DNA from: Microcoleus sp. Aus8_D1
Lineage (GTDB): Bacteria > Cyanobacteriota > Cyanobacteriia > Cyanobacteriales > Microcoleaceae
DNA: 64,000 bases
Assembly (NCBI RefSeq): GCF_036702645.1
Contig: NZ_JAUBUO010000016.1
Coordinates: 28,186-92,185, forward strand
Reading direction: 5' to 3'
Part shown: positions 545 through 47,919 of the stretch, one piece after another
Numbering within the stretch: the stretch's first letter is position 1
Layout: the number at the start of each line of letters is the position of its first letter
Made by a program: the position numbers and the translations under genes
The notes under the pieces: model-generated
What the model saw: the letters and a program-made list of their open reading frames with translations, nothing else
What the model was told of the DNA's origin: nothing
Database searches by the model: none

Positions 545-876
545 AGTTTGGGGCGATAATAGTCACCAGTTTAAACCGCGATTCAAATTAACCGTAATTC
601 CTGTAGGGGCCCGTGAGCCAACAACCTCCAACTCCCACCGACAATCTACATAAACCCGCCCCCACCCAGCCGACTTTCTCGAAACTGGCATCAATTATAG
701 CATTTCTGTTTCCGTCGATCGCACTTTCACCCTCGAACCAAACCCCTGTCACTGTACCAAACAGTTATGGAATATGGTTTCTAGATCCCCTTGACGCTCC
801 TGTATTACCAATGTAGTATAAAATGGTGGTAGAAAAGCCCGATCGACAATACCAATCTCGGACGCACCAACAGGCC

Positions 877-943
877 TAGAAACCGGGTTTTTATCGAGAT
901 TAAAGGCTCGAATCGAGTATTTTCTCCAAAAACCCGGTTTCTG
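877..943. repeat. MITE-like hairpin element, family A (AGAAACCGGGTTTTT ... AAAAACCCGGTTTCT termini, ~67 bp)
   Basis: Seven copies in the window, in both orientations. Confidence 0.8.
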
Positions 944-993
944 ACTGCCCGTGCATCCCAGACAAACCAGCAAACAAAAATTAGAAAAAACCT

Positions 994-1287
994 ATGCAAC
1001 CGATCCGACAAGGCGACGTAATTCTCACCCCGGTACAGCAAATCGCAGGAGACAAAAAACCTCACCTCACCCTCGCCGAAGGTGAAGTCACGGGACATTC
1101 TCACCGCATCATTGAGGGACAAGCTGAACTTTACGAAAAAGACGGTACTCTGTACTTGCGAGTGCTTTCGCCCACAGCTTTATTGAGTCACGAAGAGCAC
1201 CGCGCGATCGCCATTCCTGAAGGTAATTGGATGGTGCGAATTCAGCGGGAATACGAGCCACAAGGTTGGCGGTATGTCTCAGACTAA
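994..1287 (+). CDS. Small hypothetical protein (97 aa), overlaps start of next gene by 14 nt (ATGTCTCAGACTAA)
   Basis: Clean ORF, protein-like composition, translational-coupling-type overlap with 1274..2410. Confidence 0.4.
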   Translation: MQPIRQGDVILTPVQQIAGDKKPHLTLAEGEVTGHSHRIIEGQAELYEKDGTLYLRVLSPTALLSHEEHRAIAIPEGNWMVRIQREYEPQGWRYVSD

Positions 1288-2410: not shown

Positions 2411-2460
2411 AACTCCCCAACCCTGTTTAACAAGTACAGTCCTCGACTCACCAAGATCCA

Positions 2461-2527
2461 AGAAACCGGGTTTTTTCGTTAATCTGCCGGCTGCATCGAA
2501 TAATCTTCGTAAAAAACCCGGTTTCTG
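2461..2527. repeat. Family A hairpin element
   Basis: agaaaccgggttttttcgttaatctgccggctgcatcgaataatcttcgtaaaaaacccggtttct. Confidence 0.8.
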
Positions 2528-2579
2528 GCCACCCGTGCGTAAGTCCTAGTCTGATATTCTCCTAATTTACAACAATTTT

Positions 2580-4691
2580 ATGTCAGAACAACAACCAAAA
2601 CCATCGATAACTTTCAACAGCTTTGCAGACTGGTGCTTGCACAAAGATAGCCTTTGTGAAGCAGCCAAACATACAGTTGAGGAACTGTTAAAGTGGGCGG
2701 GCACTTCTGACATTAATGAAGCGAACCAGATACTATCAAGTAAGAATAAACTAGACCTGCATGGCAATAAAATATCAGACCTCGCACCCCTGCAATCTTT
2801 GACTCATTTAGTTTATCTGGATCTGCATGGCAATAAAATATCAGACCTCACACCGCTGCAATCTCTGACTAATTTGACTTCGCTGTCTCTAAACCACAAT
2901 CAAATATCAGACCTTACATCCCTGCAATCTCTCACGAATTTGACTTCTCTGACTCTGTACAACAATAAAATATCAGACCTCACACCGCTGCAATCTCTGA
3001 CTAATTTGACTTCGCTGTCTCTAGACCACAATCAAATATCAGACCTCACATCCCTGCAATCTTTGACTAATTTGACTTCTCTGACTCTGGGCGAAAATAA
3101 AATATCAGACCTCACACCCCTGCAATCTTTGACTAATTTGATTTTGCTGTTTCTGAACCGCAATAAAATATCAAGCCTCACACCACTACAATCTCTCACG
3201 AGTTTGACTTCTCTGACTCTCGGCCACAATCAAATATCGGACATCACACCCCTACAATCTTTGACTAATTTGACTTTTCTGTCTTTGGGGCGCAATCAAA
3301 TATCAGACATCACGCACTTGCAATCTCTGACTAATTTGACTCGTCTTAATCTGGGCCAAAATCAAATATCAGACATCACAGACTTGCAATCTCTGACTAA
3401 TTTGACCGATCTGGTTCTCGATAGCGATCAAATATCAGACATCACGCACTTGCAATCTCTGACTACTTTGACTCGTCTTAATCTGGGCGAAAATCAAATA
3501 TCAAACATCACATTCCTGCAATTTCTGACTAATTTGACCGATCTGGAACTGCGCGAAAATCAAATATCAGATATAACATCCCTGAAATATCTGACTAATT
3601 TGACTTATCTGAATTTGGCAAACAATCCAATATCAGATATCGCACAGCTACAATATCTCACTCGTTTGAAGGATTTGACTTTAAACCTTACATCCCAACA
3701 CCAAGCTATCATCGAAATTTGCCGTCAAAAGTGGGGAATTCTCGCCAACTCTACCGAACCAATAAAGCACTCCAAAGCCTCAAATGCCCTTAAAACAGTC
3801 TGCGATTGTCTGGATTTAAAAACCCCAGAAATAACTTTTTGCAGTAGCCCGCATGAAGCGTACTTGCGATTAGAAAGGTCTAAACAAAAAGATAATGAGT
3901 TTAAAATACAACTCGATCGACGGCTCGATTCTGCTTGTTTTCCATTTACATTAATAACAGAATTATGGTTGGGACTTTCACGATCGCTCGAATGGGAAAG
4001 ACAGCTAGAACAACAATTGAAATCGATATTCCCCGACTTGTGGCGCGACTATCGGAGATACTCAACAATGTCGATCGTTACTCCAAAATACTTGGCTGAA
4101 GATCTAGCTATGGCTGAATTCTGTGTTTCTGCTTTGGGCATGATTCTTAAACCAGAGTCAGAAAAATTTTTTGAATCTCTAAAGCAGCTTTTAGTAGAAT
4201 GCGGCTGGATTTTTGCGTTTGAGAATGTCTGCTATGTGTGCTCGCGCCCCATCAAACTTTCCCTCGATCGCGAATACCGCCTCCATGCAGAAGGGGAAAG
4301 CGCGATCGAATTTGCCGACGGCTACAAAATCTATTCATATCACGGTGTAACATTACCTGAAAAATACGGACAAATTCACCCCAAAATTTGGGAAGCAAAA
4401 TGGCTTTTAGAGGAAGAAAATGCTGAACTCAGGCGAGTATTAATTCAAGGTATTAGTTATGCTAGAATTTGCTCCGAATTGCAAGCAACCGAATTAGATT
4501 CGTGGCAAGAATACACTTTACTACAAATCGAAAATGCTGATGTTGAGCCGATTCATCTGTTAAAAATGACTTGTCCGAGCACGGGATTCATTCATGCGTT
4601 GCGAGTGCCGCCGGATCTGACATCCGCCCGCGAGGCAATTCGCTGGGTAAATTGGGACATTGACTCAGACGAATTTTCCGTGCAAACTTGA
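2580..4691 (+). CDS. Leucine-rich-repeat protein (~20 tandem 22-aa LRRs, consensus NKISDLTPLQSLTNLTSLxL) fused to the shared C-terminal paralog domain
   Basis: 66-bp periodicity visible in DNA 2750..3660; internalin-like LRR consensus; C-terminal 175 aa match the paralog domain. Confidence 0.8.
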   Translation: MSEQQPKPSITFNSFADWCLHKDSLCEAAKHTVEELLKWAGTSDINEANQILSSKNKLDLHGNKISDLAPLQSLTHLVYLDLHGNKISDLTPLQSLTNLTSLSLNHNQISDLTSLQSLTNLTSLTLYNNKISDLTPLQSLTNLTSLSLDHNQISDLTSLQSLTNLTSLTLGENKISDLTPLQSLTNLILLFLNRNKISSLTPLQSLTSLTSLTLGHNQISDITPLQSLTNLTFLSLGRNQISDITHLQSLTNLTRLNLGQNQISDITDLQSLTNLTDLVLDSDQISDITHLQSLTTLTRLNLGENQISNITFLQFLTNLTDLELRENQISDITSLKYLTNLTYLNLANNPISDIAQLQYLTRLKDLTLNLTSQHQAIIEICRQKWGILANSTEPIKHSKASNALKTVCDCLDLKTPEITFCSSPHEAYLRLERSKQKDNEFKIQLDRRLDSACFPFTLITELWLGLSRSLEWERQLEQQLKSIFPDLWRDYRRYSTMSIVTPKYLAEDLAMAEFCVSALGMILKPESEKFFESLKQLLVECGWIFAFENVCYVCSRPIKLSLDREYRLHAEGESAIEFADGYKIYSYHGVTLPEKYGQIHPKIWEAKWLLEEENAELRRVLIQGISYARICSELQATELDSWQEYTLLQIENADVEPIHLLKMTCPSTGFIHALRVPPDLTSAREAIRWVNWDIDSDEFSVQT

Positions 4692-4757
4692 AAGCAAGCA
4701 GCAGCAATATAATTTCCGATTGTTAGTTCATGAGGATGATTTTAGGAGTTCTGATTT

Positions 4758-5321
4758 ATGGTAGTTGCAGCCAAGTTAACGATTTCTATTGCAGAGTTTT
4801 TGCAGTTGCCAGAAACTAAACCGGCAAGCGAGTACATCGACGGTCAAATTTCTCAAAAACCCATGCCGCAAGGAAAACATAGCAAACTTCAAGATGAGTT
4901 ATTGTCCGGGATTAATCGGGTGGGAAAACCTGGCAAACTAGCTCATGCTTTTCCCGAGTTGCGCTGTACGTTTGGGGGTCGATCGATCGTTCCCGATATT
5001 GCTGTTTTTGAATGGTCGAGAATTCCTCTTGATGAAGATGGAGAAATTGCCAACCGTATTGAAGTTGCACCGGATTGGATAATAGAAATTCTGTCACCAG
5101 ACCAATCTCCGAATCAGGTAATTAAGAAAATTGTTTTTTCGATTAATCACGGCACTAAATTGGGTTGGTTTGCAGATCCGGGCGATAAATCAGTAATAGT
5201 TTTTCAGCCGAATCAACTGCCTGAATTTAAATCAGATACCGATATTTTACCTGTTCTCAGCGTATTGGGTGATTGGCAGTTATCCGCAGCCGAGTTGTTT
5301 AGTTGGTTGAAGATTAATTGA
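4758..5321 (+). CDS. Uma2-family (DUF820) putative restriction-endonuclease-like protein
   Basis: N-terminal ISIAEFLQLPETKPASEYIDGQI and PD-(D/E)xK-like PDIAVF...EIxEILSP core typical of cyanobacterial Uma2 proteins. Confidence 0.75.
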   Translation: MVVAAKLTISIAEFLQLPETKPASEYIDGQISQKPMPQGKHSKLQDELLSGINRVGKPGKLAHAFPELRCTFGGRSIVPDIAVFEWSRIPLDEDGEIANRIEVAPDWIIEILSPDQSPNQVIKKIVFSINHGTKLGWFADPGDKSVIVFQPNQLPEFKSDTDILPVLSVLGDWQLSAAELFSWLKIN

Positions 5322-5334
5322 TTTAATAAGCCTC

Positions 5335-5660
5335 GCGCCGGACACGGCAGTGCCGTTTCCCTACTCGATTATGTTGTTAAAAGCAGAACTCCACGCCGGA
5401 CGCGGCAGTGCCGTTTCCCTACCCGATTATGTTGTTAAAAGCAGAACCCTACGCCGGACACGGCAGTGCCGTTTCCCTACCCGATTATGTTGTTAAAAGC
5501 AGAACCCCACGCCGGACGCGGCAGTGCCGTTTCCCTACCCGATTATGTTGTTAAAAGCAGAACCCTACGCCGGACACGGCACTGCCGTTTCCCTACCCGA
5601 TTATGTTGTTAAAAGCAGAACCCCACGCCGGACATGGCAGTGCCGTTTCCCTACAGAAAC
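5335..5660. repeat. Tandem direct repeat, ~60-bp unit x ~5.5 (cgccggacacggcagtgccgtttccctacccgattatgttgttaaaagcagaaccccA)
   Basis: Read directly; units abut with no spacers; a few point differences between copies. Confidence 0.9.
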
Positions 5661-6027
5661 TGCTATCTTGGCAAAAATCTTAATCCATAAAACTCTAATC
5701 AATATTCGCCCTGTGCCAGTTAAAATGGTGGAATGCCCAAACCATCAATTTAGCAAAAACTGTTAATAACATAAGAAAGAAGCCCACCTTCAGTCAAAGG
5801 TGAGCTAAATTCATGCCAGCTTACCGAAAGCTAGGCAATCGGGTCTCTAAGCCGATTGACGTAAAAGTTGAGAAAAAGATCCAAATCTTCCGGAAAAACT
5901 TATCCCCAACAATTAAGCTTCAGTTTACCCAAGCAGATCGGGAAAATTTCGCACACAGCGATGTTCCCCTGAAAGTGGGGAAATGCTGGGGCTTTATTTT
6001 GGCCAGCAATCCCCAATCTCAAAGGGT

Positions 6028-6873
6028 TTAAGCATCGTGATCGTGAGCGAAGCGGCGGAAGAGGAAGTCTAGGGCGTAGTTCCGCAAGTTGTAATATTCG
6101 GGATCTTCCATCATTTGTACCCGATCGCGCGGACGAGGAAAAGGAATCTCCAGAACCTCGCCAATCGTTGCTGACGGGCCGTTGGTCATCATCACGAGTC
6201 GATCGGCCAAAAACAGCGCTTCGTCAATATCGTGAGTAATCATCAACACCGTACAGCGGTGATCGTTCCAGATTTTCAGCAACTCTTCCTGCAATTCTTC
6301 CTTGGTAATTGCGTCCAAAGCACCGAAAGGTTCGTCTAAAATCAGCACCTTGGGGCGAATTGCTAAGGCGCGGGCGATGGACACCCGCTGCTTCATCCCC
6401 CCAGAAATTTGCGGAGGTCTTTTCTCAGAAGCTTCTGTCAGTCCCACCATCGCCAAATGCTCTTTGACGATCTCATTTTTCTCGGCCTGCGACTTCTCAG
6501 GAAATACAGCGTTAACGGCAATATAAACATTCTCAAACACCGTGCGCCAAGGCAGCAAAGCGTAACCCTGAAACACTACCATGCGATCGGGGCCCGGCTT
6601 CACAATCCGCTGCCCGTTAATCGACACTGTGCCGTCGCTGGGATGGCTAAAACCGGACACCATATTTAATAGTGTGGACTTCCCACAGCCCGAGTGTCCG
6701 ATCAGAGTAATAAACTCTCCCTCAGCTACGGTCAAGTTAACGTTTTCTAATGCCCTGTAACCGTTTGGATAGACTTTATAAACATTGTCCATCACCAAAA
6801 AAGGCTGGCGGCGATCTTTCTTAGACTTGATTTGGGTTTTGGTGCTTGTCTGGTTGACAGAAGTATTAATCAT
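6028..6873 (-). CDS. nrtD/cmpD: Nitrate/bicarbonate ABC transporter ATP-binding subunit (NrtD/CmpD type)
   Basis: Walker A GHSGCGKST, signature ISGGMKQRVSIARAL, Walker B ILILDEPFGALD; last gene of the A-B-C-D operon. Confidence 0.85.
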   Translation of the reverse strand: MINTSVNQTSTKTQIKSKKDRRQPFLVMDNVYKVYPNGYRALENVNLTVAEGEFITLIGHSGCGKSTLLNMVSGFSHPSDGTVSINGQRIVKPGPDRMVVFQGYALLPWRTVFENVYIAVNAVFPEKSQAEKNEIVKEHLAMVGLTEASEKRPPQISGGMKQRVSIARALAIRPKVLILDEPFGALDAITKEELQEELLKIWNDHRCTVLMITHDIDEALFLADRLVMMTNGPSATIGEVLEIPFPRPRDRVQMMEDPEYYNLRNYALDFLFRRFAHDHDA

Positions 6874-7087
6874 GGGTTTAGGAAATTGTTAGTGGGTGAT
6901 TAGCGATAGCAAATAATCGAGTTTTGAATGGTTAGTTTGTCGCCAGTGCTAAAGAGTAGACTTGAATTGCATAAATCTTTGATTGATAGATTAACCGCAT
7001 ATCTAGCAACCGATGAAAGTAGATTAGGACAAATTGTAGCGATCGTACATTTTTATTTGTGGTGGGGTTCGCGTCACAAATAAATAT

Positions 7088-7285
7088 CCCAAAATCCTGT
7101 AGGGGCGGGTTCACCAACTATCTATGAAACCCACAAACAATCTCATAAACCCGCCCCATCCACGCCATTATTTACATCAACATTTTACCAATAAATTCAC
7201 CGTACATTTTTATTGTTGGTGGGTGGGGGCGGGTTTATGAGCTCATTTATTTTTACCATAAATTGTTGGCGAACCCGCCCCTACC
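7088..7285. repeat. MITE-like element, family B (~195 bp, TIR GTAGGGGCGGGTTCACC ... GGCGAACCCGCCCCTAC), inserted between transporter genes C and D
   Basis: Near-identical full copy at 22162..22368; partial copies at 594..690, 17545..17650, 47700..47775. Confidence 0.8.
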
Positions 7286-7493
7286 AATTGGGTCTATCGT
7301 AATATCATAACTACCTTTCCGGTTGCTATGTAAGGCAGATGCAACACAAATTAACGCAGATGCATTTCAAGAAGAGCGATCGAATGAATGCAATTGCTCG
7401 TCTAGTTTTTTGTAGGTGGGATTTAGGGACTCAACCCAACCTACAAATTACTTTTTTCTACCTCAAAACTGGCCACTCAAAATAACACACTTC

Positions 7494-9494
7494 CTAAGCA
7501 GCTCTGCGACGCGCATCCAGTACCACTTCAGCCATCGTGAAATCGCGTTTAATCGCCAGATTGTTGAGATAGCCGATCGGATCTTCAGCATTAAACACCG
7601 AGCCGTCAAACAAACGCAGAGAACCCCGATTGTAAGTAATGTCAGACATCCCCAACTCTCGCGCCGCCGTGCTGAAAGCGCCAACTCGTACCACCCGCTC
7701 CAGAATTTCCACCCAGTTGCGGGGGAACACAGTATCGCCCCAACGCGCCATCTGCACCATGTGCCATAGTTGTTCGGTGCGACTTGGGCGGTTCACCCCG
7801 TCTCCGGAAAACAAGTGGTGGGCGTATTCCCGCATTGGAGAATCCAGGTTGCAAACAGTAGTGCTGGGATCGCCGAGTTGGATGAAACTCTTATCAGTAG
7901 CGACGTATTCCCGTCCCGCGACAATCTCCGCAACCTCTTGGGAGTGGCTCGGATCGGCGCAATAGTGGGAAGCTTCCAGCAAAGCTTTGACTAGAGCAAT
8001 GTGAGTGTTGGGATAAGCATTCGCCCACTCTTCCCGAACTCCGAGAATTTTTGCAGGGTGTCCGGGCCACAGTTCCAAATCCGTCGCCACGGTAAAGCCG
8101 ACTCCTTCCATCGAGGCCCGCAAGTTCCAAGGTTCCCCAACGCAGAACCCGTCAATCGTGCCGCCTTGCAAGTCCACGATCATCTGGGCCGGAGGGAGGT
8201 TTTTGAGCAACACATCGCGATCGGGGTCAATGCCGCCGGAAGCTAGCCAGTAGCGCAGCAGCAGGTTGTGCATCGATGAAGGGTGAACGATGCCCATGCG
8301 GTGGGTTTGCGCGGGGGTTCTGCGCAGCATTTCTTTGAAATCTGCCAGAGTGTAAATCCCTTGGTCGTAAAAGCGCCGAGCTAGGGTAATTCCGTTGCCG
8401 TTGCGGCTCATGGTGAGGGCTGTAACGGTCGGTATCGGTTGCTCTTGGTGGCCTCCCAAGCTCAACCACATCGCCATCCCAGAGGGCATTTGCGCTGCGT
8501 CTAAGTAACCTGCGGCGATGCCGTCTACGATGCCGCGCCAGCTTGTTTCCCGCACGAGGTGGACTTCATCGAGTCCGTGTTTGGCAAATAAGCCTTTTTC
8601 TTTGGCGATCGCTAGGGGAGCGCAGGCTGCTAGGGGGATAAAGCCGAGTTCCAGGTTGACTTTTTCTAGGCCGTGGCGGGCGATCGCCGGTACTTTCCGC
8701 GCCCGCAGTTTTTTGACTCGTTTCTGCTGGTTGAGGAAGTAAATCATTTCGCTGCGCAGGGCGTAGTAGCTGGGGTGCGATACTACATCCATGCGTATGC
8801 GCGGGCGGGGGATGTCTACTTCGAGGATGCCGCCAATCTTCGATTCTGGGCCGTTGGTGAGCATGACGATGCGATCGCTCAGCAGCACCGCTTCATCCAC
8901 ATCGTGCGTTACCATCAGGGCGCTGATTTGGTACTCTTGGCAGATTTCCATCAACTTTTCTTGCAAGTTGCCGCGAGTCAAAGCGTCTAGGGCGCCGAAG
9001 GGTTCGTCTAAGAGTAACAGTTTGGGGCGCAGGGCCAAAGCACGGGCGATCGCCACGCGCTGTTTTTGTCCGCCGGAGAGGAGTGCCGGTTGCTTCTCGG
9101 CGTGGGGCGTCAAGCCCACCATGTCGATGTGTTTTTGGATGATGTCGAGGCGTTCGGCTTTACCTAAGCCGCTCATTACTGAGTCTACGGCGAGGGTAAT
9201 ATTTTCTCTGACAGTCCGCCAAGGTAGCAGCGAATAGTTTTGGAATACTACCATGCGATCGGGCCCGGGCTGGGTGATTCTTTGTCCGTCGATCGTCACC
9301 AATCCTTCTGTGGGCAAATCCAAACCTGCCACCATATTTAGGAGCGTAGATTTGCCGCACCCCGAGTGTCCGACTAAGGAGATGAATTCTCCTTTTTCAA
9401 TTTCTAAGTCGATGCCTTTGAGGGCTATGTATGTGCCGCCGTCTGATAAATTAAATGTTTTTCCGACTTGATCTACCGCAATCAAAACTGACAT
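7494..9494 (-). CDS. nrtC/cmpC: Nitrate/bicarbonate ABC transporter ATPase with C-terminal NrtA-like solute-binding domain (NrtC/CmpC type)
   Basis: N-terminal ABC ATPase (GHSGCGKST, LSGGQKQRVAIARAL, LLLLDEPFGALD) plus ~380-aa C-terminal domain homologous to the periplasmic binding protein. Confidence 0.85.
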   Translation of the reverse strand: MSVLIAVDQVGKTFNLSDGGTYIALKGIDLEIEKGEFISLVGHSGCGKSTLLNMVAGLDLPTEGLVTIDGQRITQPGPDRMVVFQNYSLLPWRTVRENITLAVDSVMSGLGKAERLDIIQKHIDMVGLTPHAEKQPALLSGGQKQRVAIARALALRPKLLLLDEPFGALDALTRGNLQEKLMEICQEYQISALMVTHDVDEAVLLSDRIVMLTNGPESKIGGILEVDIPRPRIRMDVVSHPSYYALRSEMIYFLNQQKRVKKLRARKVPAIARHGLEKVNLELGFIPLAACAPLAIAKEKGLFAKHGLDEVHLVRETSWRGIVDGIAAGYLDAAQMPSGMAMWLSLGGHQEQPIPTVTALTMSRNGNGITLARRFYDQGIYTLADFKEMLRRTPAQTHRMGIVHPSSMHNLLLRYWLASGGIDPDRDVLLKNLPPAQMIVDLQGGTIDGFCVGEPWNLRASMEGVGFTVATDLELWPGHPAKILGVREEWANAYPNTHIALVKALLEASHYCADPSHSQEVAEIVAGREYVATDKSFIQLGDPSTTVCNLDSPMREYAHHLFSGDGVNRPSRTEQLWHMVQMARWGDTVFPRNWVEILERVVRVGAFSTAARELGMSDITYNRGSLRLFDGSVFNAEDPIGYLNNLAIKRDFTMAEVVLDARRRAA

Positions 9495-9761
9495 GGTTTT
9501 CTTGCCTTTTTTGTAGGTTTGTCCTTGATTTTTTGATTAATGATTCTTGACTGTTGACTCTTAGCTGTTATCTTAGTGCCGATCGCTCAACTGCCATAAT
9601 AATATTGGTTCTATCGTTCGGACTTCAGTCTTCTTTAAAGACTGAGGAACCGTTTTTCGATAGCGAGGAATTCAGTTCTCTTACAAAGGTTAAGGACTGA
9701 AGTCATGACTGCGAACCAAATTGCAGTTATTTTACCGGACTTGATCTTAGCTTTTAGCTAA

Positions 9762-9873
9762 CAACTGACAACTGCCAACTGACAACTGACAACTGACAAC
9801 TAACAACTGACAACTGCCAACTGCCAACTGACAACTGACAACTGTCAACTGACAACTGTCAACTGACAACTGT
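9762..9873. repeat. STRR heptamer array (CAACTGA/CAACTGC/CAACTGT x ~16)
   Basis: Read directly; same heptamer family again at 52833..52947. Confidence 0.9.
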
Positions 9874-9876
9874 TAG

Positions 9877-10722
9877 TTATTTGCCTTGAGAGGGAGCAAT
9901 CTTTTGCTGCAACCACGCCATCAGGCGATCGAGCATCAAACCAACCGCCCCAATGTAGAACACCGCTAATAGAATTTCACTGATGTAGTTTTGCTGGTAA
10001 GCATTCCAAATAAAGAAGCCAATACCTGTAATCCCCGACATCACGATTTCTGCTGCAATAATCGCCAGCCAAGCCAAACCGATCGCAATTCTCAATCCGG
10101 TGAAGATATAAGGAAGCGCCGACGGAAACAAGATATTGATGTAATATTCCTTCTGAGTCAGTTGCAGCACTTTCGCTACGTTATTGTAATCGTCGGGAAT
10201 TTGACGGACACCTTCAGCCGTGTTGATCAAAATCGGCCAAACTGAGGTAATAAAAATCACGAACAAAGCAGCAGGTTCGTTTTGTTGCAATGCAGCTAGG
10301 GCGATGGGAACCCAAGCCAGAGGCGCCACCATCCGCAAGAACTGGAAAATCGGGTCTAAAGCCTTGTTTAAAAAGGGATTCGTACCTACCAGAACCCCGA
10401 CGCTAATGCCCACAGCGGCCGCGAGAGTGTAGCCTTTTGCCACCCGCTCCAAACTAGCCAAAGTCTGCCAAAATAAGCCGACTCCGTAGGTTTTGGAGTT
10501 CATGAAAGGATACATCAACAAAATCCGCGTCCGTTCATCCGTCCAAACGCTAGTCGGAGGTGGCAACTTGATGATTCCAGTACCCGAGAGGAATTGCCAA
10601 ACGAACAGAAATCCCAAAAGTCCTAAAATTGGCGGCAATATATTGGCGGAATTCTTCTTCCAAAACTCGCCAAGGACTCCTTGGACATCGACTCCGCCTC
10701 TCCGATTTGTGCTGACAGCCAT
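9877..10722 (-). CDS. nrtB/cmpB: Nitrate/bicarbonate ABC transporter permease (NrtB/CmpB type)
   Basis: 281 aa, multiple TM segments, BPD-transport permease signature region (AAEIVMSGITGIGFFI). Confidence 0.85.
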   Translation of the reverse strand: MAVSTNRRGGVDVQGVLGEFWKKNSANILPPILGLLGFLFVWQFLSGTGIIKLPPPTSVWTDERTRILLMYPFMNSKTYGVGLFWQTLASLERVAKGYTLAAAVGISVGVLVGTNPFLNKALDPIFQFLRMVAPLAWVPIALAALQQNEPAALFVIFITSVWPILINTAEGVRQIPDDYNNVAKVLQLTQKEYYINILFPSALPYIFTGLRIAIGLAWLAIIAAEIVMSGITGIGFFIWNAYQQNYISEILLAVFYIGAVGLMLDRLMAWLQQKIAPSQGK

Positions 10723-13044: not shown

Positions 13045-13262
13045 TTGGTTCGAGCGTTCCGAATGCGAGTCCTTGATGGATGCGGACGCTCAGTCCTCAG
13101 GAGCGAACCTTTTTTGTTCGAGCGTTCCGAATGCGAGTCCTTGATGGATGCGGATGCTCAGTCCTCAGGAGCGAACCTTTTTTTGTTCGAGCGTTCCGAA
13201 TGCGAGTCCTTGATGGATGCGGACGCTCAGTCCTCAGGAGCGAACCTTTTTTGAATGCGGAA
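13045..13262. repeat. Tandem direct repeat, ~72-bp unit x 3, each ending in a T6-7 run; immediately 3' of the ATPase gene
   Basis: Unit gttcgagcgttccgaatgcgagtccttgatggatgcggacgctcagtcctcaggagcgaacctttttt read three times. Confidence 0.9.
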
Positions 13263-17541: not shown

Positions 17542-17725
17542 GCCAGGAAATGTAGGGGCGGGCGATGCCCTGAGCCTAGTCGAAGGGTTCACCAACCACA
17601 AACGCCAATAATTGCTGGCATCAAAAATCCGCCCCCACCAAACAAAAAATCAAAATGTACATTATTAGAAATAAGGTACTTTTTTTGAGTGTTCAAATTA
17701 ATCATATTTTTTTCTACCAAATTAG

Positions 17726-22161: not shown

Positions 22162-22368
22162 CCGTAGGGGCGGGTTCACCGAAATCTCGAACGCAAATCC
22201 AACAATCTGATAAACCCGCCCTGCCCCCGCCCAATTTTACATCAACATTTTATCCAATAAATTAAGGGTAGATTTGTATTTGCGATCGGGTGGGGGCGGG
22301 TTTACGAGATGATTCATTTTCGCCATAGAGGGTTGGCGAACCCGCCCCTACGCGGATTGCGGTTTTCG
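22162..22368. repeat. MITE-like element, family B, full copy
   Basis: About 85 percent identical over ~195 bp to 7088..7285, same 17-bp terminal inverted repeats. Confidence 0.8.
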
Positions 22369-22378: not shown

Positions 22379-22972
22379 TTACGTTTCTGTTTCTGTTTCT
22401 GTTTCAAATTGAACGCCTTCATACAAAAGTTCGATCGGCAAATCAAACCCAATACTTGATAAAGTAATAATCTCCCCAGCAGTGTAAGCATAGTAAAGCC
22501 ACATTCTGCCCTCTCCGCGACAGTAACGTTCAGCGGAGATTTTTTCTGAGTCAATCAAGATATACTCTTGCAAGCTCGGAATTTTCAGGTAACAAGTGAA
22601 TTTTTCATCCCGATCTTTAGCACTTGTACTGGGGGAGAGAACTTCCACAATGATTTTAGGATTCTGAATAAACTTGCGGGAATTCAAGTCTTGAGAATCG
22701 CAACTGACTATGACATCAGGATAGTAGTAACGGCTTTGAAAACTGACTTGCAATTTCACATCTGACACGTTCATCCGACAACCTCTGGAACGCAGATGCG
22801 GGCGTAATGCAGTATAAAAGTTAAGTGCAAGATCGTTATGGGGAATTGTACTTCCCGTCATGGCAAAAACTTCGCCGTTGACATATTCGTGGCGAATCTC
22901 TTGTTGAGCTTCCCATTCGAGATATTCCTCAACGGTCATTTTTTGGGGTGCTTGGGGAATAGCTATCATCAC
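22379..22972 (-). CDS. Uma2-family (DUF820) putative endonuclease
   Basis: MTVEEYLEWEAQQEIRHEYVNGEVFAMTGSTIPHNDLALN typical Uma2 N-terminus; C-terminal ETETETET comes from a GTTTCT hexamer run. Confidence 0.75.
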   Translation of the reverse strand: MMIAIPQAPQKMTVEEYLEWEAQQEIRHEYVNGEVFAMTGSTIPHNDLALNFYTALRPHLRSRGCRMNVSDVKLQVSFQSRYYYPDVIVSCDSQDLNSRKFIQNPKIIVEVLSPSTSAKDRDEKFTCYLKIPSLQEYILIDSEKISAERYCRGEGRMWLYYAYTAGEIITLSSIGFDLPIELLYEGVQFETETETET

Positions 22973-42455: not shown

Positions 42456-42463
42456 TTATTAAG

Positions 42464-44155
42464 TTATTGACACTGACGTGCGTGTTGCATTCGCAGCGCT
42501 AAAATGTGTTCGCAAGGGCCTTTGTACAGCTTGTTTTGCTGGTGCCAATTACAAGTACATTCTGCCTCAATTATACGCTCATCGGCATCAATTGTCAAGT
42601 GCGGATTCAAGGTTTTTTCCCGGTCTGTGACACTGCCTCGCACGGTGAATGCACCGGAAGAATCGCTGGTAAAATCGGTCACTTGTACCGCATTTTCACT
42701 CAAGAAAAGAGTTGCTTTTGATTCTCTTTCGTTGGCAAATCTCAAACGTTCTAAGGGCAAAGGTTCTCGGCTCAATTCCCGCACTCGGTACACCTGTTTG
42801 TTCAAATCGTAAATTGCCCTTCCCGCTTGCGTGTAGGCACTCAATGCACCCAACACTGACGCCCGATTTAACTTCAGTCTGGCGGCCAAACTGTCAGCAG
42901 TTTCTACCCAATTTTCTTTGAGTGCATCAAAGATTAATTGCTGCGTCCAAGCATCTACATCGGCGCGCGGGGCCATTAAATCAAAGTTACCGGATTGCGA
43001 CCAATCATTGGCACTCCATCCCGACAATCCTAGGGTAAATGACATATCGCCCAAATCGGCGACGTAAAAAGAAGGCATTCCCGTTCCTAACAGGTGAACT
43101 GTGAACTTTTTGGCGACGGGAATCAGTCTTTCGAGAATGTGAAGGCGGCGCCTTCCCCAAACTCGAATTTCCTGTGCTTGCGAACCAGTATAGGGCGATC
43201 GCGCGCAAACAACTTCCGTACCCCACGGATCGAAAATCACCCGCACCGGTTCCCCCGGATTCAGGATGTAGCGCATACTGCGCGGGCCTTGTTTCTCCTT
43301 GTGGCGGCGCAAAACAAAACAAATATTGTGGATGTCCATCGGGTGCAAATCAAACCGCACCGCCGGCAAAGACATCGCCGAACTAACTTGCAAAAATCCT
43401 CTCACCCAACTGTCAGGTAAGTCTATTTTGACTTCTTTAAAAGTCTCTTCATGCACCGTTTGAACTTCAAAACCCGAGGGATCTACTTGCAGCGAAGTAG
43501 TCTTGTAACTGCGGATTTTTTGAAATTCATCATAAAGCGCTGCCGAGTAGTCGATATTAGTCGTGCCGCAAGCAAACTCGCTGATATTTTTAAACACTTC
43601 GTAGCTGGCGCCGAGGCGGCCGTAACTCGACTCATCCTGACTGAAACACTCGAAAAATACCTCATCGGGATGTACTGTAATCACCGGATCGAGGACAAAC
43701 CAAGCATCGCGGTCTTTTTGATAAATGTAGTCAAAGTATTGCTGTTGGGCGCGATAAAAAGGTGCCAGACGTTGGTGTTGACGCCGAGTTAACTCGTTGA
43801 ACTCTGCTTGCAGCGGCTGAACTTTTTGGGCAACTTTTTGTTGGCGGCAGGCGATTAATTGCCAATCGATTTCTTGCTGTTGGGCTGCCCATTCTTTATA
43901 AGCTGTTTTGTCTTTGGGTTTGAAGCGCATATCGGAAACCACGACATCGTGCAAAGCGCTAATTGCTTCGCGAAAAGCGACATTTTGACGCAATTCTCCG
44001 ATAAAATAAGTGGGCGGACGTTTGGTGTCGGGAGAAAAAGACATTTGCGTGCTGCCGCCGCTTTCAGCAACTTCGGTATTTCCTTTGTAAGAGTAGTTAA
44101 ATTCCATAATATTTTTTTCAACTAGGTTCGTAGTGAGGACTTCAGTCCGCATCAA
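42464..44155 (-). CDS. SWIM zinc-finger domain protein (563 aa)
   Basis: C-terminal CxCx(n)CxH: AECTCNWHQQNKLYKGPCEHILAL; partner of the upstream WGR protein (E. coli YehQ-like arrangement). Confidence 0.75.
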   Translation of the reverse strand: MMRTEVLTTNLVEKNIMEFNYSYKGNTEVAESGGSTQMSFSPDTKRPPTYFIGELRQNVAFREAISALHDVVVSDMRFKPKDKTAYKEWAAQQQEIDWQLIACRQQKVAQKVQPLQAEFNELTRRQHQRLAPFYRAQQQYFDYIYQKDRDAWFVLDPVITVHPDEVFFECFSQDESSYGRLGASYEVFKNISEFACGTTNIDYSAALYDEFQKIRSYKTTSLQVDPSGFEVQTVHEETFKEVKIDLPDSWVRGFLQVSSAMSLPAVRFDLHPMDIHNICFVLRRHKEKQGPRSMRYILNPGEPVRVIFDPWGTEVVCARSPYTGSQAQEIRVWGRRRLHILERLIPVAKKFTVHLLGTGMPSFYVADLGDMSFTLGLSGWSANDWSQSGNFDLMAPRADVDAWTQQLIFDALKENWVETADSLAARLKLNRASVLGALSAYTQAGRAIYDLNKQVYRVRELSREPLPLERLRFANERESKATLFLSENAVQVTDFTSDSSGAFTVRGSVTDREKTLNPHLTIDADERIIEAECTCNWHQQNKLYKGPCEHILALRMQHARQCQ

Positions 44156-44300
44156 ATCCGGTTCGTAGTGAGGACTTCAGTCCGCATCAAATTCAGGTTC
44201 GTAGTGAGGACTTCAGTCCGCATAAAATCCAGTTCGTAGTGAGGACTTCAGTCCGCATCAAATTCAGAGGACTAAAGTCCTCACTACGAACACTTTATCA
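44156..44300. repeat. Tandem 36-bp direct repeat x4 (GTTCGTAGTGAGGACTTCAGTCCGCATCAAATYCRG) ending in an inverted partial copy that forms an ~18-bp hairpin
   Basis: Read directly; related single copies of GTAGTGAGGACTTCAGTCC at 37290..37312, 52395..52450, 60405..60440. Confidence 0.85.
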
Positions 44301-44369
44301 AATCTGCCTCCTACATTTAGCATCGATCGCCCTTTCCGACATCCCAATTCCACAAATCTTAACTAAAAA

Positions 44370-47300
44370 TCAACTCCTCACCTCAACCACAGGCTTTACC
44401 TGAATTGGCAAATCTATCTGAGGATAACGCCGGCGAATCTTCAGCATAGTCTCAATAGCCGCTGCTTTATCTGCGATCGCAATTGTAGCCGATTGCCTGG
44501 TTAAAATATCCGCAACAATCCCGGCCGCCGCCTCACTCTTTTGCGCCTCCGCATCCAGAAACGCAAAAACTCGGCGCTTCGCCACCCTTCCCTGATTCAC
44601 CCGCGACAAAACCGCGACCAAAAAAGGCGCTAATTCCCGCAATTTCTCAGGATTGCTTGCAGCATAACTCTCCAAATAATTAGTAGCAAACAACTGCATA
44701 TCCGCCGACGGATGCTCGCTAAACTTCAGCAAATAATCGTGTCCGGACTCATCCTGAAAATAGCGAATTACCAAATCTCTGCCGAATTGCCGCACATCTT
44801 CCCGAATGCTGTCGCAAAGACTAACCATAATTTCCGGAGTCCAATCTGCCTCAGTCAATTCCGTGCGAAAAATCCTGGCGGCAAATTCCCGCGAATCATC
44901 CCATTTTGCCTCCAGCAGCCGCACGGCTGACAGCATTTCTTGAGAATTGGCGCGAATCGCATCTAGCTTTTGCAAAAACATTTGTCTCGCAGATTCTCGC
45001 ACCGAAAAAATCTCGTGACTCGCCAGCTTGACAATCTCAATTGTATCAAACTCCGCCGCCCAATTCGTGCTATTTTTCACCAGCACAAATCCGCCTAATT
45101 CCTGCGCGACAGCAGACTTAGCTTTCAGCAGCAGCCAAGTCTTGTCCTTATCCATCGCCGACATCCACCCCGGAATATCTTGCCGCAGCAAATCGAGCAA
45201 ATAACTGTGTACTCCTTCCTGTCTTTCCGGTATCAGCAACACATCAATCAATTCCCCAGCAACCAGCGCTGCAAATTCGGGATATTCGGCGGCCAAACGC
45301 CGAATTACTGGTTTAATAGAATTGCGGATGTCGGCCAAAGCATTGACTGCCATTCCTACTATCAAACTTGTCTGAGAACTTGTTAGCGATTCGTCCGGTA
45401 ATTGACCGAATAACCTGATGCCAATTCTTCGAATTTGTTCGTAGGGCGACGCAATTAGCGATTCGATTAATTCAGACGGCAAATCAGCCGCACCGATTTC
45501 GTGATTCAGCAAAATTCTCGCCCCCAATTCCTGAACTTCCGGCACCGGATGCCGCAGCAAATCCAGGATAACTCCCAATCCCAAACTCCGCAGTTGTGGG
45601 GTAAAGTTGAGCAGGAGCGTATCGGCGATGTCTTTGGCTACAATTGAGGTATGAGTCGGAATGAATTCTGTTGGTTGAAATGTTAATAAATGGGCTATCA
45701 GTTTGCCAATTAGTAGCCTGACGGTTGCAGGGCTGAGAATTGATGAGTTGAGCAACCTGCGGGCAAATTGCCTGGTGTCTGCGTACAAGCTGGTTACTAG
45801 AGTAACAATTAATTCTGTATCTGATAAAATGCGATCGCGCTGTTCGTCAATCCAGTCAAAAGCTTGGGTTCTCGCTGGCACAAATATGCAGTTAACCAGC
45901 CCTAGAATTACTTCGCGGTGGGCTGGATATCGATGATATCCGTTTTGGACTGCCAAATTGAAACCCAGTTCGGCTGTAACTTCGTAAGGTACAGCAATCA
46001 GTTTGATTGCAGTGTCAGCATCTATCCCAGCTAAAAATTGCGGACAAGCTTTCAGCGCTTTCACAGCGAAATGGTGCACCGGGCGGCAGTTGCTGGCTAA
46101 TAACAATTGCAACAGCGCATCGGGATATTGTTCCCAAAGTTCGGGAAAAGCTTCTTCTCGCACTTCCGGCTCCGGATCTCCTGGTTTGTAACCTTCTCTG
46201 CAGCGCCACGCTTGCGAATTGGTAAAATAAGCATAGCGCGGGCTGTTTTCGTAGAGAATGCGGTTAAATGTTAAGTAACCGGCAAAGATATCCCATTCAG
46301 ATGAATAACTGATTTTATTCCAATTAGAGAAATCCCATTGATAATCAGCATCGCTAGTCCCCTTAGAGCGAATCCACTGATAATAAGTGATCTGCAAAAC
46401 TGCTTCGGCATCGCTATCAACGTATTGCAGCAAAATGCTGACAGCCATTTTTACATAATCAGCATCGCTTTCTTCGCCTAATTGTTTGAGAGTGCGCCAC
46501 ACCCTTTTAATTAAGTAGCTGCGCGTACTGCTGCTGTAGGCAATTCGGCAATTGGGACTCTGCATTTCCTCTAGAAAACTGCTGTTTGCAGTGTATTCAT
46601 TTTTGCCTGTTTGTTCGTTGTACGCCCAGTCTTGCTTTGTCAGATACCCGCCACCAGGAATGTTAATATACCAAGCATTGCTGCGGTACATGGCTTTTTC
46701 GTCCTCAAAGCGGCGGGCCACAATCGCAAATACTTCGGCGTCGCGACGGTATTCCGCCATTTTGAAGATGTGGCGGATTTGTTTAAAATAATGGGGTTTT
46801 AGCGGTGCAGTTTTTAAGATATCCAGTAATGCCGATCGCACAAACTGACTGTCAATCTGGTAAAGTCGATCGAGAACCGCAAAACGACTGCTATCTTCCG
46901 TGTCGAGTTCAACTTTCAATGCTGCTGAAAATTCCTCAGCGCTGCCGTTTGCAGCTAATTCGCGCAACTGTGGGGGTAGCAATTCTATTATGGACGATTC
47001 TAGGTGCGATCGCGCTTCCTCATCCGCCAACTTCAGCAATCCTTCAAAAGCAATTCTCCTCACAAACTCCGCAGTCGCAGCATCCCGATACAGCCGAGTC
47101 AGCGCCTCCACAGCGCCCTCGCCGCCGCACCAACCCAAACTCCAAGCAATACAGTAGTCTCGCAGCGGTTCTCCCGTACCGATTAAGTTAATCAGTCCCG
47201 GCCCGGCTTCGGTAATTTTCAGCTCCCCAGCGCGCCAAATAGCCCGTTCCAGAGGCCATTTAGGATTGCCAGCGCCGGCAAGACGGTTCAAAATAGCTTG

Positions 47301-47594
47301 TTGGCGCGTCTCGGCGCGAGGAAGTTCTGGCGCGGGTGCAACATCAGCAACGCTGGCTGCTTCCTGATAGCCTTTCTTTACCTTTTCCGCGACTAGCTTG
47401 TCGAAAACTTTTTCAGCTTTGGCCAAGGGCACTGGTGTATCGGTTTTTGTGCCTTCCTGGAGATTGGCGCCCCGCCGTCCGTAGCGAAAGTTGACCGAGT
47501 AGAGGTTTTCGCCGGTTTGACACAAATCGACTTCGTATACTTTATCCGATCGACCGTCCTGAAAATAAAGAGCCGTCCGCTTAATCAATTTCAT
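44370..47594 (-). CDS. WGR-domain protein with long HEAT/ARM-like repeat region (MolR-like, 1074 aa)
   Basis: N-terminal WGR: SDKVYEVDL...YSVNFRYGRRG...EKVFDKLVAEKVKKGY; remainder alpha-helical repeats. Confidence 0.75.
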   Translation of the reverse strand: MKLIKRTALYFQDGRSDKVYEVDLCQTGENLYSVNFRYGRRGANLQEGTKTDTPVPLAKAEKVFDKLVAEKVKKGYQEAASVADVAPAPELPRAETRQQAILNRLAGAGNPKWPLERAIWRAGELKITEAGPGLINLIGTGEPLRDYCIAWSLGWCGGEGAVEALTRLYRDAATAEFVRRIAFEGLLKLADEEARSHLESSIIELLPPQLRELAANGSAEEFSAALKVELDTEDSSRFAVLDRLYQIDSQFVRSALLDILKTAPLKPHYFKQIRHIFKMAEYRRDAEVFAIVARRFEDEKAMYRSNAWYINIPGGGYLTKQDWAYNEQTGKNEYTANSSFLEEMQSPNCRIAYSSSTRSYLIKRVWRTLKQLGEESDADYVKMAVSILLQYVDSDAEAVLQITYYQWIRSKGTSDADYQWDFSNWNKISYSSEWDIFAGYLTFNRILYENSPRYAYFTNSQAWRCREGYKPGDPEPEVREEAFPELWEQYPDALLQLLLASNCRPVHHFAVKALKACPQFLAGIDADTAIKLIAVPYEVTAELGFNLAVQNGYHRYPAHREVILGLVNCIFVPARTQAFDWIDEQRDRILSDTELIVTLVTSLYADTRQFARRLLNSSILSPATVRLLIGKLIAHLLTFQPTEFIPTHTSIVAKDIADTLLLNFTPQLRSLGLGVILDLLRHPVPEVQELGARILLNHEIGAADLPSELIESLIASPYEQIRRIGIRLFGQLPDESLTSSQTSLIVGMAVNALADIRNSIKPVIRRLAAEYPEFAALVAGELIDVLLIPERQEGVHSYLLDLLRQDIPGWMSAMDKDKTWLLLKAKSAVAQELGGFVLVKNSTNWAAEFDTIEIVKLASHEIFSVRESARQMFLQKLDAIRANSQEMLSAVRLLEAKWDDSREFAARIFRTELTEADWTPEIMVSLCDSIREDVRQFGRDLVIRYFQDESGHDYLLKFSEHPSADMQLFATNYLESYAASNPEKLRELAPFLVAVLSRVNQGRVAKRRVFAFLDAEAQKSEAAAGIVADILTRQSATIAIADKAAAIETMLKIRRRYPQIDLPIQVKPVVEVRS

Positions 47595-47919
47595 TGCAGT
47601 TTGTCACCATCGCTAAGCTTGTCGGGGCGAGTCCGCGCCCGCAATTCTAACATCCCGCAGACTATCTCATATCCTGGACGATCGATCGACCATAATATCC
47701 TGGCCGGGGCGGGTTTACAGGATCTTGGATTTATGCCCGATATCTGGGCGAACCCGCCCCTACCATATTATGGGCCAAGCGTTGCGGAGGGAATCTGCCC
47801 CCTCTCCCATTCTCCCTCTCTCTCGCCTTTGTCCACCCAATGTAAAAATATGTTGCAATATTTTTACTGCTGTGTTAAGTTTAGTTACATAAGGTTGAAA
47901 TACAACGAGGTTTCTGGTT

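What the first reader, a model, noticed from the sequence alone, without database searches (positions are those of the whole stretch)
594..47775. ~195-bp MITE-like element (family B) with 17-bp GC-rich terminal inverted repeats; one copy splits the transporter operon
Full copies at 7088..7285 and 22162..22368 are about 85 percent identical. They share the termini GTAGGGGCGGGTTCACC / GGCGAACCCGCCCCTAC and internal inverted ATAAACCCGCCCC / GGGGGCGGGTTTA boxes. Half-copies are at 594..690, 17545..17650 and 47700..47775. The 7088 copy sits in an atypical 620-bp gap between the C and D genes of the nrt/cmp operon, which are normally adjacent. This suggests an insertion that may decouple or attenuate expression of the D subunit.
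Basis: seen in the sequence. Interest (0 to 1): 0.5.

Follow-up and report, generated by a model that had tools for sequence, protein, structure and literature searches.

The report
Cyanobacterial REP doublet, not a MITE
The ~190-bp "MITE" is a pair of inverted 59-nt GTAG-tagged palindromic repeats (a REP doublet, or REPIN) from a family already catalogued in filamentous cyanobacteria and tied to a RAYT tyrosine transposase, so it is real but ordinary.

Summary
The repeats are real. Full copies lie at 7099-7284 and 22164-22351. Single units lie at 47706-47763, 603-662 (decayed) and 17552-17635 (split by a 24-nt insert).

The basic unit is not a 17-bp terminal repeat. It is a 59-nt hairpin module: GTAG, GGGCGGGTT, a loop of about 35 nt, then AAACCCGCCCC. 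A full copy is two modules in inverted, GTAG-outside orientation around a ~70-nt linker.

The same module occurs in at least 120 loci, almost all from filamentous cyanobacteria. It tightly flanks RAYT (TnpA_REP, subclass 2.4) genes in all 7 RAYT loci examined, at 3.2-5.8 arms/kb against 0.05-0.22 arms/kb in background. Quentin et al. 2018 list the same 58-59-nt sequence as the cognate REP of an Arthrospira RAYT. So it is a REP/REPIN, a new member of a known kind.

The nrtC-nrtD copy is lineage-specific: it is absent from 10 orthologous loci. Those relatives already have 193-324-bp, hypervariable C-D spacers, so "normally adjacent" is wrong for this clade. The spacer has no consensus promoter or terminator. 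Any effect on nrtD is untested.

One side observation: the copy at 22164-22351 is flipped in situ in two relatives and is more conserved than the neighbouring gene.

The parts
7099..7284 (.). Copy 1: REP doublet (REPIN-like, GTAG feet outside) in the nrtC-nrtD spacer. REP on + at 7099-7157, linker 7158-7225, inverted REP (REP on -) at 7226-7284.
   Evidence: (I4: 59-nt arms, 80% complementary, 68 nt apart). The operon-sense RNA folds at -96.8 kcal/mol, z -8.9. ssDNA folds at -45 kcal/mol, z -7.5.
7035..7075 (.). Degenerate partial unit next to copy 1. It resembles the linker-to-arm junction of copy 1 (GTACATTTTTATT..GGTGGGG).
   Evidence: Sequence read directly.
22164..22351 (.). Copy 2: REP doublet between the convergent merA-like oxidoreductase gene (20583-22124, +) and a Uma2 gene (22379-22972, -). 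REP on + at 22164-22222, REP on - at 22293-22351, 70-nt linker.
   Evidence: An orthologous doublet is present but flipped in L134 and L140.
47706..47763 (-). Intact REP singlet (GTAG foot at 47763, on the minus strand).
   Evidence: ssDNA hairpin -16.3 kcal/mol, z -3.3.
603..662 (+). Decayed REP singlet. The 5' arm has mutated to GTAGGGGCCCGTGAGCC. The 3' arm ATAAACCCGCCCC plus its CACCCAGCC tail is intact.
   Evidence: D13. It no longer folds (z +1.4).
17552..17635 (+). REP singlet 11 nt downstream of the stop of ORF 16516-17541. Its 5' arm is split by a 24-nt insert (17563-17586, CGATGCCCTGAGCCTAGTCGAAGG).
   Evidence: The same insert sits at the same arm position in L007.
7494..9494 (-). 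nrtC/cmpC-type ATPase gene (666 aa), upstream neighbour of copy 1 in the operon sense.
   Evidence: TIGR01184, 394.6 bits.
6028..6873 (-). nrtD/cmpD-type ATPase gene (281 aa), downstream neighbour of copy 1.
   Evidence: TIGR01184, 405.7 bits. Closest relatives are 95% and 92% identical; the 92% hit is Microcoleus sp. F8-D3.

Best explanation
Family B is a family of long, GTAG-tagged repetitive extragenic palindromes (REPs) of filamentous cyanobacteria.

One unit is about 59 nt: the foot GTAG, a 10-bp G+C-rich stem (GGGGCGGGTT / AACCCGCCCC) and a loop of about 35 nt with variable sequence. It is often followed by a CACCCAAC-like tail. The two 'full copies' are head-to-head doublets (REP + linker + inverted REP). 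This matches the REPIN of Bertels & Rainey, the BIME of E. coli and the HH dimer of Di Nocera. The 'half copies' are singlets, two of them decayed or disrupted.

Inferred mechanism: the units are non-autonomous. On single-stranded DNA they would be bound at the GTAG foot plus hairpin by a single-copy RAYT / TnpA_REP (Y1 HUH enzyme, subclass 2.4 = Bertels group 4) encoded elsewhere in the genome. The enzyme would cut at C|T dinucleotides, for example inside the CTAC of the inverted unit, and transfer strands. This disperses and rearranges units without target duplications.

Copy 1 is a lineage-specific occupant of an already long and fast-turning-over nrtC-nrtD spacer. It is co-transcribed with the operon and would form a very stable RNA hairpin. 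By analogy with enterobacterial REPs, such a hairpin could change the relative stability of the upstream and downstream mRNA segments.

Shown here: the anatomy, the distribution, the RAYT linkage in relatives, the identity with catalogued REPs, and absence from orthologous spacers.

Inferred only: RAYT catalysis on these units, current mobility, and any effect on nrtD.
For: 1. Anatomy. Every intact unit starts with GTAG. Unit length peaks sharply at 58-60 nt over 332 pattern matches, some palindromic units being counted on both strands. Intact units fold as ssDNA hairpins with z -3.3 to -4.9, except the left unit of copy 2, whose 3' arm carries a mismatch (z -1.65).

2. Distribution. Nearly all are Microcoleus, Oscillatoria, Tychonema, Coleofasciculus, Symploca, Calothrix, Nostoc, Planktothrix, Limnoraphis and similar genera.

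3. Arrangements are those of REPs. Among 220 units there are 107 singlets, 31 HH pairs, 17 TT pairs, 18 HT pairs and 18 double-foot units. HH gaps cluster near 27 nt and 58-78 nt; the window copies have 68 and 70 nt.

4. RAYT linkage.
- ORFs flanked by units in L079 and L076 are Y1_Tnp / REP_Tyr_transpos. L079 scores 81.9 bits against a cut-off of 80.
- A truncated RAYT sits directly behind units in Microcoleus locus L096.
- Five loci were fetched only through RAYT protein homology, not through the repeat: L121 and L190 (Microcoleus), L191 (Coleofasciculus), L192 (a 7.6-Mb genome) and L193 (Oculatellaceae). All five have the units packed against the gene.
- Density is 3.2-5.8 arms/kb within 1 kb of a RAYT gene. 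It is 0.05-0.10 arms/kb in 68 loci not selected for the repeat, and 0.22 arms/kb in the window.

5. The RAYTs carry the subclass 2.4 motifs NH[IV]H, WQ and YIxNNP, and in-frame REP insertions. Quentin 2018 describes exactly this for subclass 2.4 (PMC6006769).

6. Quentin 2018 Table S1 lists GTAGGGGCGGGTTC...ATAAACCCGCCC (58-59 nt) as the REP of Arthrospira platensis RAYT BAI88150.1.

7. Dispersal. A doublet 84% identical to copy 1 lies at an unrelated locus in Microcoleus sp. A006_D1 (L105). There is presence/absence variation at orthologous sites.

8. Stem variants are mostly uncompensated (4 compensatory, 103 unpaired). This fits sequence-specific protein recognition plus decay of copies, rather than a structure-selected RNA.
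Against: - The window holds no RAYT gene (tblastn) and the source genome was not available. The cognate enzyme is therefore shown only in relatives.
- No clean empty site was recovered, so mobility and the absence of target duplication rest on flank inspection and on presence/absence polymorphism.
- No subclass 2.4 RAYT has been tested biochemically as far as I found; the mechanism is transferred from E. coli TnpA_REP (PMC3333891).
- The 35-nt loop is far larger than in classical REPs.
- The orthologous copy 2 is more conserved than neighbouring third codon positions. Simple neutral decay of a selfish element does not predict this.
Confidence: 0.85

Rival explanations
1. It is a classical MITE: an internally deleted derivative of an IS with 17-bp terminal inverted repeats. 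A DDE transposase would move it by cut-and-paste and create target-site duplications.
For: Inverted termini and a size of about 190 bp. It is dispersed, intergenic and non-coding.
Against: - There are no direct repeats at the flanks: copy 1 has ..AATCCT|..|CAATTG.. and copy 2 has ..TGAACC|..|GCGGAT...
- The inverted repeat is the whole 59-nt unit, and that unit also lives alone, in tandem and tail-to-tail.
- In an all-against-all comparison of ORFs from 120 loci, the RAYT was the only transposase-type gene found flanked by the units. The three largest recurrent ORF clusters were not checked with Pfam; their representative sequences look like common signalling and exporter families.
- No IS with these ends was seen.
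Confidence: 0.05
2. It is a host-selected structural or regulatory element whose spread no longer depends on transposition. Candidates are an mRNA-stabilising or attenuating hairpin, a transcription or RNase barrier, or a DNA-binding site.
For: - Units sit just downstream of genes or between convergent genes.
- The doublet RNA hairpin is very stable, -96.8 kcal/mol, z -8.9.
- In the operon sense a UUUU run starts 4 nt after the hairpin (sequence).
- Orthologous copy 2 is 93-94% conserved, against 86.5% for the adjacent gene and 72-74% at its third codon positions.
- The two outer arms of both doublets keep a G-T wobble on one strand only.
Against: - Copy 1 is absent from 10 orthologous nrt operons, which carry unrelated repeats instead. 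No conserved operon function needs it.
- Stems show almost no compensatory change.
- There is no Rfam family; the only sub-threshold hits are generic long hairpins.
- No canonical terminator or promoter was found.
- This reading is not exclusive with the REP/RAYT reading.
Confidence: 0.1

Closest known systems
REP sequences cognate to TnpA_REP/RAYT subclass 2.4 (Bertels group 4), as catalogued by Quentin et al. 2018 (PMC6006769), e.g. Arthrospira platensis BAI88150.1
   Same: - The same sequence: GTAG foot, GGGCGGGTT stem with three G-C pairs at the base, 58-59 nt long, ending in ATAAACCCGCCC.
- 'Double-foot' variants.
- In-frame REP insertions inside the RAYT gene.
- RAYT motifs NH[IFV]H / WQ / YIxNNP.
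   Different: Here it is seen in a Microcoleus-type genome. The ~70-nt-linker doublet is a recurrent unit. There is an orthologous in-situ flip. None of this changes the class.
REPINs (Bertels & Rainey 2011, PMC3116915), BIMEs of E. coli (Ton-Hoang 2012, PMC3333891) and HH dimers of GTAG repeats (Di Nocera 2013, PMC3733652)
   Same: - Two REPs in inverted orientation with GTAG outside, able to form one long hairpin.
- Singlets as probable decayed remnants.
- Clusters around a single RAYT gene (REPtron).
- Extragenic location, mostly downstream of genes.
- No target duplication.
   Different: Each REP is 59 nt with a ~35-nt loop, against 20-40 nt with loops of 2-15 nt. The doublets are about 186 bp, against roughly 70-110 bp spacings in Pseudomonas. 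The RAYT belongs to group 4 / subclass 2.4, not groups 2 or 3. Bertels 2017 found group 4 only weakly associated with abundant 16-mers.
Bacterial MITEs (e.g. Nezha of Anabaena/Nostoc, NEMIS, RUP)
   Same: Small, non-coding, dispersed, with inverted termini, probably mobilised in trans.
   Different: No target-site duplication. The half-units are autonomous repeat units. The associated enzyme is a Y1 HUH transposase, not a DDE transposase.

Membership tests
GTAG-tagged REP / REPIN (RAYT-associated) | Conserved 5' GT[AG]G tetranucleotide at the foot of the hairpin | tested here: met
   All intact window units and 208 of 285 relaxed matches in the loci start with GTAG.
GTAG-tagged REP / REPIN (RAYT-associated) | The unit is a palindrome that folds as a stem-loop in single-stranded nucleic acid | tested here: met
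   A 10-bp G+C stem. ssDNA folds of intact units reach z -3.3 to -4.9, except the left unit of copy 2, whose 3' arm carries a mismatch (z -1.65). The decayed unit 603-662 and the insert-split unit 17552-17635 do not fold better than shuffles. The ~35-nt loop is long but equals the catalogued 'long' REPs.
GTAG-tagged REP / REPIN (RAYT-associated) | Repetitive and extragenic | tested here: met
   Five intact and two degenerate units in 64 kb, all between ORFs. At least 120 loci in other genomes. A whole-genome copy number for the source organism could not be obtained.
GTAG-tagged REP / REPIN (RAYT-associated) | Units flank a RAYT (Y1 HUH) gene (REPtron) | tested here: met
   Seen in 7 of 7 RAYT loci of relatives. 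Five of these were chosen by protein homology only. Enrichment over background is 20-100 fold. It could not be tested in the source genome: the window has no RAYT.
GTAG-tagged REP / REPIN (RAYT-associated) | Inverted doublets are the favoured higher-order arrangement | tested here: met
   HH 31, HT 18, TT 17. HH gaps cluster at 27 and 58-78 nt.
GTAG-tagged REP / REPIN (RAYT-associated) | The RAYT binds and cleaves the single-stranded unit in a GTAG-dependent way and transfers strands | not testable with these tools
   Known only for E. coli and a few other TnpA_REP enzymes (PMC3333891, PMC8266576).
RAYT subclass 2.4 (the associated enzyme) | Motifs NH[IFV]H, WQ and YIxNNP, and REP insertions inside the gene | tested here: met
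   P0001, P0004, P0068 and others show MPNH(I/V)HG, WQR(N/G)YYE and EYI(I/V)NNP. GAG..PAPT insertions occur in P0001, P0009, P0050, P0071 and P0059.
Classical MITE (DDE-IS derivative) | Target-site duplication flanking the element | tested here: not met
   No direct repeat of 2 nt or more at either full copy. No clean empty site was available to confirm this.
Classical MITE (DDE-IS derivative) | A parent IS with the same termini encoding a DDE transposase | tested here: not met
   None was seen among ORFs of the 120 loci. The only transposase-type gene found flanked by the units is the Y1 RAYT. This is a limited sample, and the three largest recurrent ORF clusters were not annotated with Pfam.
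IS200/IS605-derived PATE | Subterminal hairpins in the same orientation on one active strand, with no terminal inverted repeats | tested here: not met
   The two units of a doublet are inverted relative to each other (I4).
Any Rfam RNA family | A match at the gathering score | tested here: not met
   No match in the window. In the spacer there are only sub-threshold matches to miRNA-precursor hairpins (33 bits against 140).

The most novel reading that the evidence does not exclude
REP doublets of this family may not be passive. The copy at 22164-22351 has been held at one orthologous site across Microcoleus lineages. It is more conserved than the flanking gene's synonymous positions, yet it occurs in both orientations. 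This could mean the RAYT repeatedly re-homes or inverts doublets at fixed sites, or that the host selects them as invertible structural or regulatory modules. The copy inside the nrt/cmp operon would then be a recent acquisition that tunes the NrtC:NrtD ratio.
Probability: 0.1. Interest if true: 0.55.

Novelty: new member of a known kind. Interest (0 to 1): 0.25.

Why it matters
Mostly for correct annotation. In Microcoleus-type genomes these ~190-bp elements and their 'halves' should be labelled REP/REPIN units of the RAYT subclass 2.4 system, not MITEs. Long, variable spacers inside operons such as nrtABCD are the norm in this clade.

The family shows that one REP foot-and-stem sequence is kept almost unchanged across several groups of filamentous cyanobacteria together with its RAYT. 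That makes these organisms a usable system for studying group 4 RAYTs, whose activity is uncharacterised. The flipped but well-conserved orthologous doublet is a small lead on how REPINs persist.

Tried and rejected
- A full-text search for the stem sequence found nothing relevant.
- The Elhai 2008 paper on small dispersed repeats is not held. I therefore could not compare the 24-nt insert with the SDR families.
- Exact-protein look-ups of the window's NrtD and of P0047 were not on record.
- Empty-site and target-duplication analysis failed at both full copies. The orthologous spacers are hypervariable and occupied by other repeats.
- The covariation test of the stem gave almost no compensatory pairs, so I dropped the idea of a structure-selected RNA.
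- The promoter/terminator scan of the C-D spacer was empty. That scan cannot see hairpins with loops longer than 8 nt.
- Rfam gave nothing meaningful.
- ORF clustering in 120 loci found three large clusters. From their representative sequences they look like common cyanobacterial families (signalling proteins, C39 peptidase/ABC exporters). I did not run Pfam on them and did not pursue them.
- The Uma2 gene next to copy 2 also recurs next to units elsewhere (L019, L081, L121, L126). I treated this as coincidence, on the understanding (my own knowledge, not tested here) that Uma2 is a large multi-copy family in cyanobacteria.
- A genome-wide census was impossible.


Full report
**Observation**

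The two full copies and their termini are real. GTAGGGGCGGGTTCACC with up to 3 mismatches occurs 6 times in the window against 0.09 expected. The inner box AAACCCGCCCC occurs 13 times against 1.06 expected.

Exact bounds are 7099-7284 and 22164-22351. The copies are 80% identical (154 of 193 columns). The inverted repeat spans 59 nt per arm at 80% complementarity, with 68 nt between the arms (I4).

Each arm is itself a hairpin: GTAG, GGGCGGGTT, about 35 nt, then AAACCCGCCCC.
- 47706-47763 (minus strand) is intact.
- 603-662 has a mutated 5' arm.
- 17552-17635 has a 24-nt insert in the 5' arm.

**Gene context**

On the minus strand lie an nrtA/cmpA-like gene (12311-10914), nrtB (10722-9877), nrtC (9494-7494) and nrtD (6873-6028). 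Copy 1 lies in the 620-bp C-D spacer. Copy 2 lies between a convergent merA-like oxidoreductase gene and a Uma2 gene.

The window is from a Microcoleus-type cyanobacterium. L041 (Microcoleus sp. herbarium2) is syntenic with part of it at 84-95% identity. The best named NrtD hit is Microcoleus sp. F8-D3 at 92%.

**What the unit is**

Nearly all are filamentous cyanobacteria of many genera.

Unit length is sharply conserved at 58-60 nt while the loop sequence varies. A T precedes GTAG in 66% of units.

Across these loci and the window, 220 units comprise 107 singlets, 31 head-to-head pairs (GTAG outside), 17 tail-to-tail pairs, 18 tandem pairs and 18 'double-foot' palindromes. Head-to-head gaps cluster near 27 and 58-78 nt. 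The window's two doublets have gaps of 68 and 70 nt. Doublets with related linkers occur in other Microcoleus genomes. One of them, at an unrelated locus, is 84% identical to copy 1 (L105).

**Link to a transposase**

I clustered all ORFs of the loci. One small family lies between inverted units (L079, L076) or directly behind them (L096). These ORFs are Y1_Tnp / REP-associated tyrosine transposases. L079 scores 81.9 bits against the NCBIfam cut-off of 80.

A protein search returned thousands of homologues. Many are named RayT, and they come from Microcoleus, Coleofasciculus, Roseofilum, Limnoraphis, Planktothrix, Symploca and others.

I then fetched five RAYT loci by protein identity alone: two Microcoleus, one Coleofasciculus, one 7.6-Mb genome and one Oculatellaceae. 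All five genes are packed between family-B units. Density is 3.2-5.8 arms/kb within 1 kb of the gene. It is 0.05-0.10 arms/kb in 68 loci not selected for the repeat, and 0.22 arms/kb in the window. The window itself has no RAYT.

**Comparison with the literature**

- Di Nocera et al. 2013 define GTAG-tagged REP superfamilies, including cyanobacterial ones. They find HH dimers the favoured arrangement and RAYTs the associated enzymes (PMC3733652).
- Bertels & Rainey 2011 define REPINs as inverted REP doublets, with singlets as their remnants (PMC3116915).
- Quentin et al. 2018 describe TnpA_Y1 subclass 2.4 (Bertels group 4). It is abundant in cyanobacteria and has the motifs NH[IFV]H, WQ and YIxNNP. 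Its REPs are 'long' with three G-C pairs at the stem base, and 'double-foot' REPs also occur. REPs are inserted in frame inside the RAYT gene (PMC6006769).
- The RAYTs found here show exactly these motifs and carry the in-frame insertions, seen as GAG...PAPT peptides.
- Table S1 of Quentin 2018 lists GTAGGGGCGGGTTC...ATAAACCCGCCC, 58-59 nt, for Arthrospira platensis BAI88150.1. That is the same unit.

The family is therefore already catalogued. The window adds new members.

**Mechanism**

This part is inferred by transfer from E. coli TnpA_REP. That enzyme binds the single-stranded REP through the GTAG foot and hairpin. It cleaves at C|T dinucleotides in the inverted REP (including CC|TAC) or in the linker, and it transfers strands. 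Both strands of a doublet are substrates (PMC3333891).

The doublets here end in CCCC|TAC, so such a site exists. Stem variants are mostly uncompensated (4 compensatory against 103 unpaired in 274 units). This argues for sequence-specific recognition plus decay of copies rather than a structure-selected RNA.

**The operon claim**

Ten orthologous operons have NrtD 89-95% identical to the window's. Their C-D spacers are 193, 324 or 288-289 bp. None contains a family-B unit. Apart from about 10 nt after nrtC and 40-70 nt before nrtD, the spacers are not alignable, and they carry other small repeats.

So copy 1 is lineage-specific, but C and D are not 'normally adjacent' in this clade. The window's spacer also holds a degenerate unit (7035-7075) and an unrelated GTAG...CTAC palindrome (7412-7444).

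No sigma-70-like promoter and no canonical terminator is present. In the operon sense the doublet folds at -96.8 kcal/mol (z -8.9), and a UUUU run follows after 4 nt. An effect on mRNA processing or read-through is possible but untested.

**Side result**

Among 16 orthologous merA-like loci, L134 and L140 carry the orthologue of copy 2 between colinear flanks, but flipped. Identity to the window copy is 93.6% and 92.6% in reverse orientation, against 68% and 66% in the same orientation. The adjacent gene is 86.5% identical in DNA, and 72-74% at third codon positions. The other loci carry unrelated repeats at this site. In-situ inversion between the arms, or re-insertion at the same site, are both open. 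The excess conservation is unexplained.

**Verdict**

The MITE label is replaced by REP/REPIN of the RAYT subclass 2.4 system. The element is a new member of a known kind. The operon effect is unproven.

Noticed in passing
window 22164-22351; L134 about 4080-4270; L140 about 4065-4255: The orthologous REP doublet is flipped in situ in two related metagenomic Microcoleus contigs while both flanks stay colinear. It is 93-94% conserved, against 86.5% for the neighbouring gene and 72-74% at that gene's third codon positions.
   Followed up: partly
window 17563-17586; L007 about 1481-1504: A 24-nt insert (CGATGCCCTGAGCCTAGTCGAAGG) splits the 5' stem arm of a REP at exactly the same position in the window and in a Microcoleaceae MAG (1 mismatch). 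It is either a propagated REP variant or a tiny element that targets the arm. It could not be compared with Elhai's small dispersed repeats.
   Followed up: partly
P0001, P0009, P0050, P0071, P0059; L079 1554-1615; L076 551-618: RAYT genes of these cyanobacteria contain in-frame REP insertions, translated as GAG...(K/E)PAPT. Hassallia P0009 has two. The intragenic copies in L076 and L079 carry a compensated stem variant, GGGGCAGGTT / AACCTGCCCC. The phenomenon is already described for subclass 2.4.
   Followed up: partly
window 37296-37314, 44130-44287, 52397-52415, 9694-9712: A second GTAG-footed REP family (GTAGTGAGGACTTCAGTCC, 8 hits against 0 expected). It includes a tandem array with a 35-36-nt period at 44089-44265.
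   Followed up: partly
window 37163-37243 and 62320-62481: A short REP family with a GTGG foot (TGTGGAACGGGCATCTTGCCCGTTCC / GGGGCGGGCAGGATGCCCACCCC). It occurs as an inverted pair and as three tandem 54-nt units. The same type fills the merA-Uma2 spacer in L137.
   Followed up: no
window 7412-7444: A single 'double-foot' palindrome, GTAGGTGGG...CCCAACCTAC, in the same nrtC-nrtD spacer. It has no other copy in the window.
   Followed up: partly
window 9719-9914 and 52791-53000; L041 6596-6783: Heptamer (STRR-type) tandem arrays. One lies in the nrtB-nrtC spacer. In L041 a family-B REP singlet sits inside the orthologue of the second array, where the window has only the array.
   Followed up: partly
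   Followed up: no
window 13045-13253, 5273-5712, 2633-3724: Tandem repeats: three 68-69-nt units at 96-99% identity upstream of the P-type ATPase gene, six 58-nt units, and thirteen 66-nt units inside ORF 2580-4691.
   Followed up: no
window 22379-22972; L121 3081-3683; L190 2174-2776; L126 5569-6153: Uma2-family (putative restriction endonuclease-like) genes recur immediately next to family-B units and next to the Microcoleus RAYT gene. I treated this as coincidence for a family I understand to be multi-copy in cyanobacteria; this was not tested.
   Followed up: no
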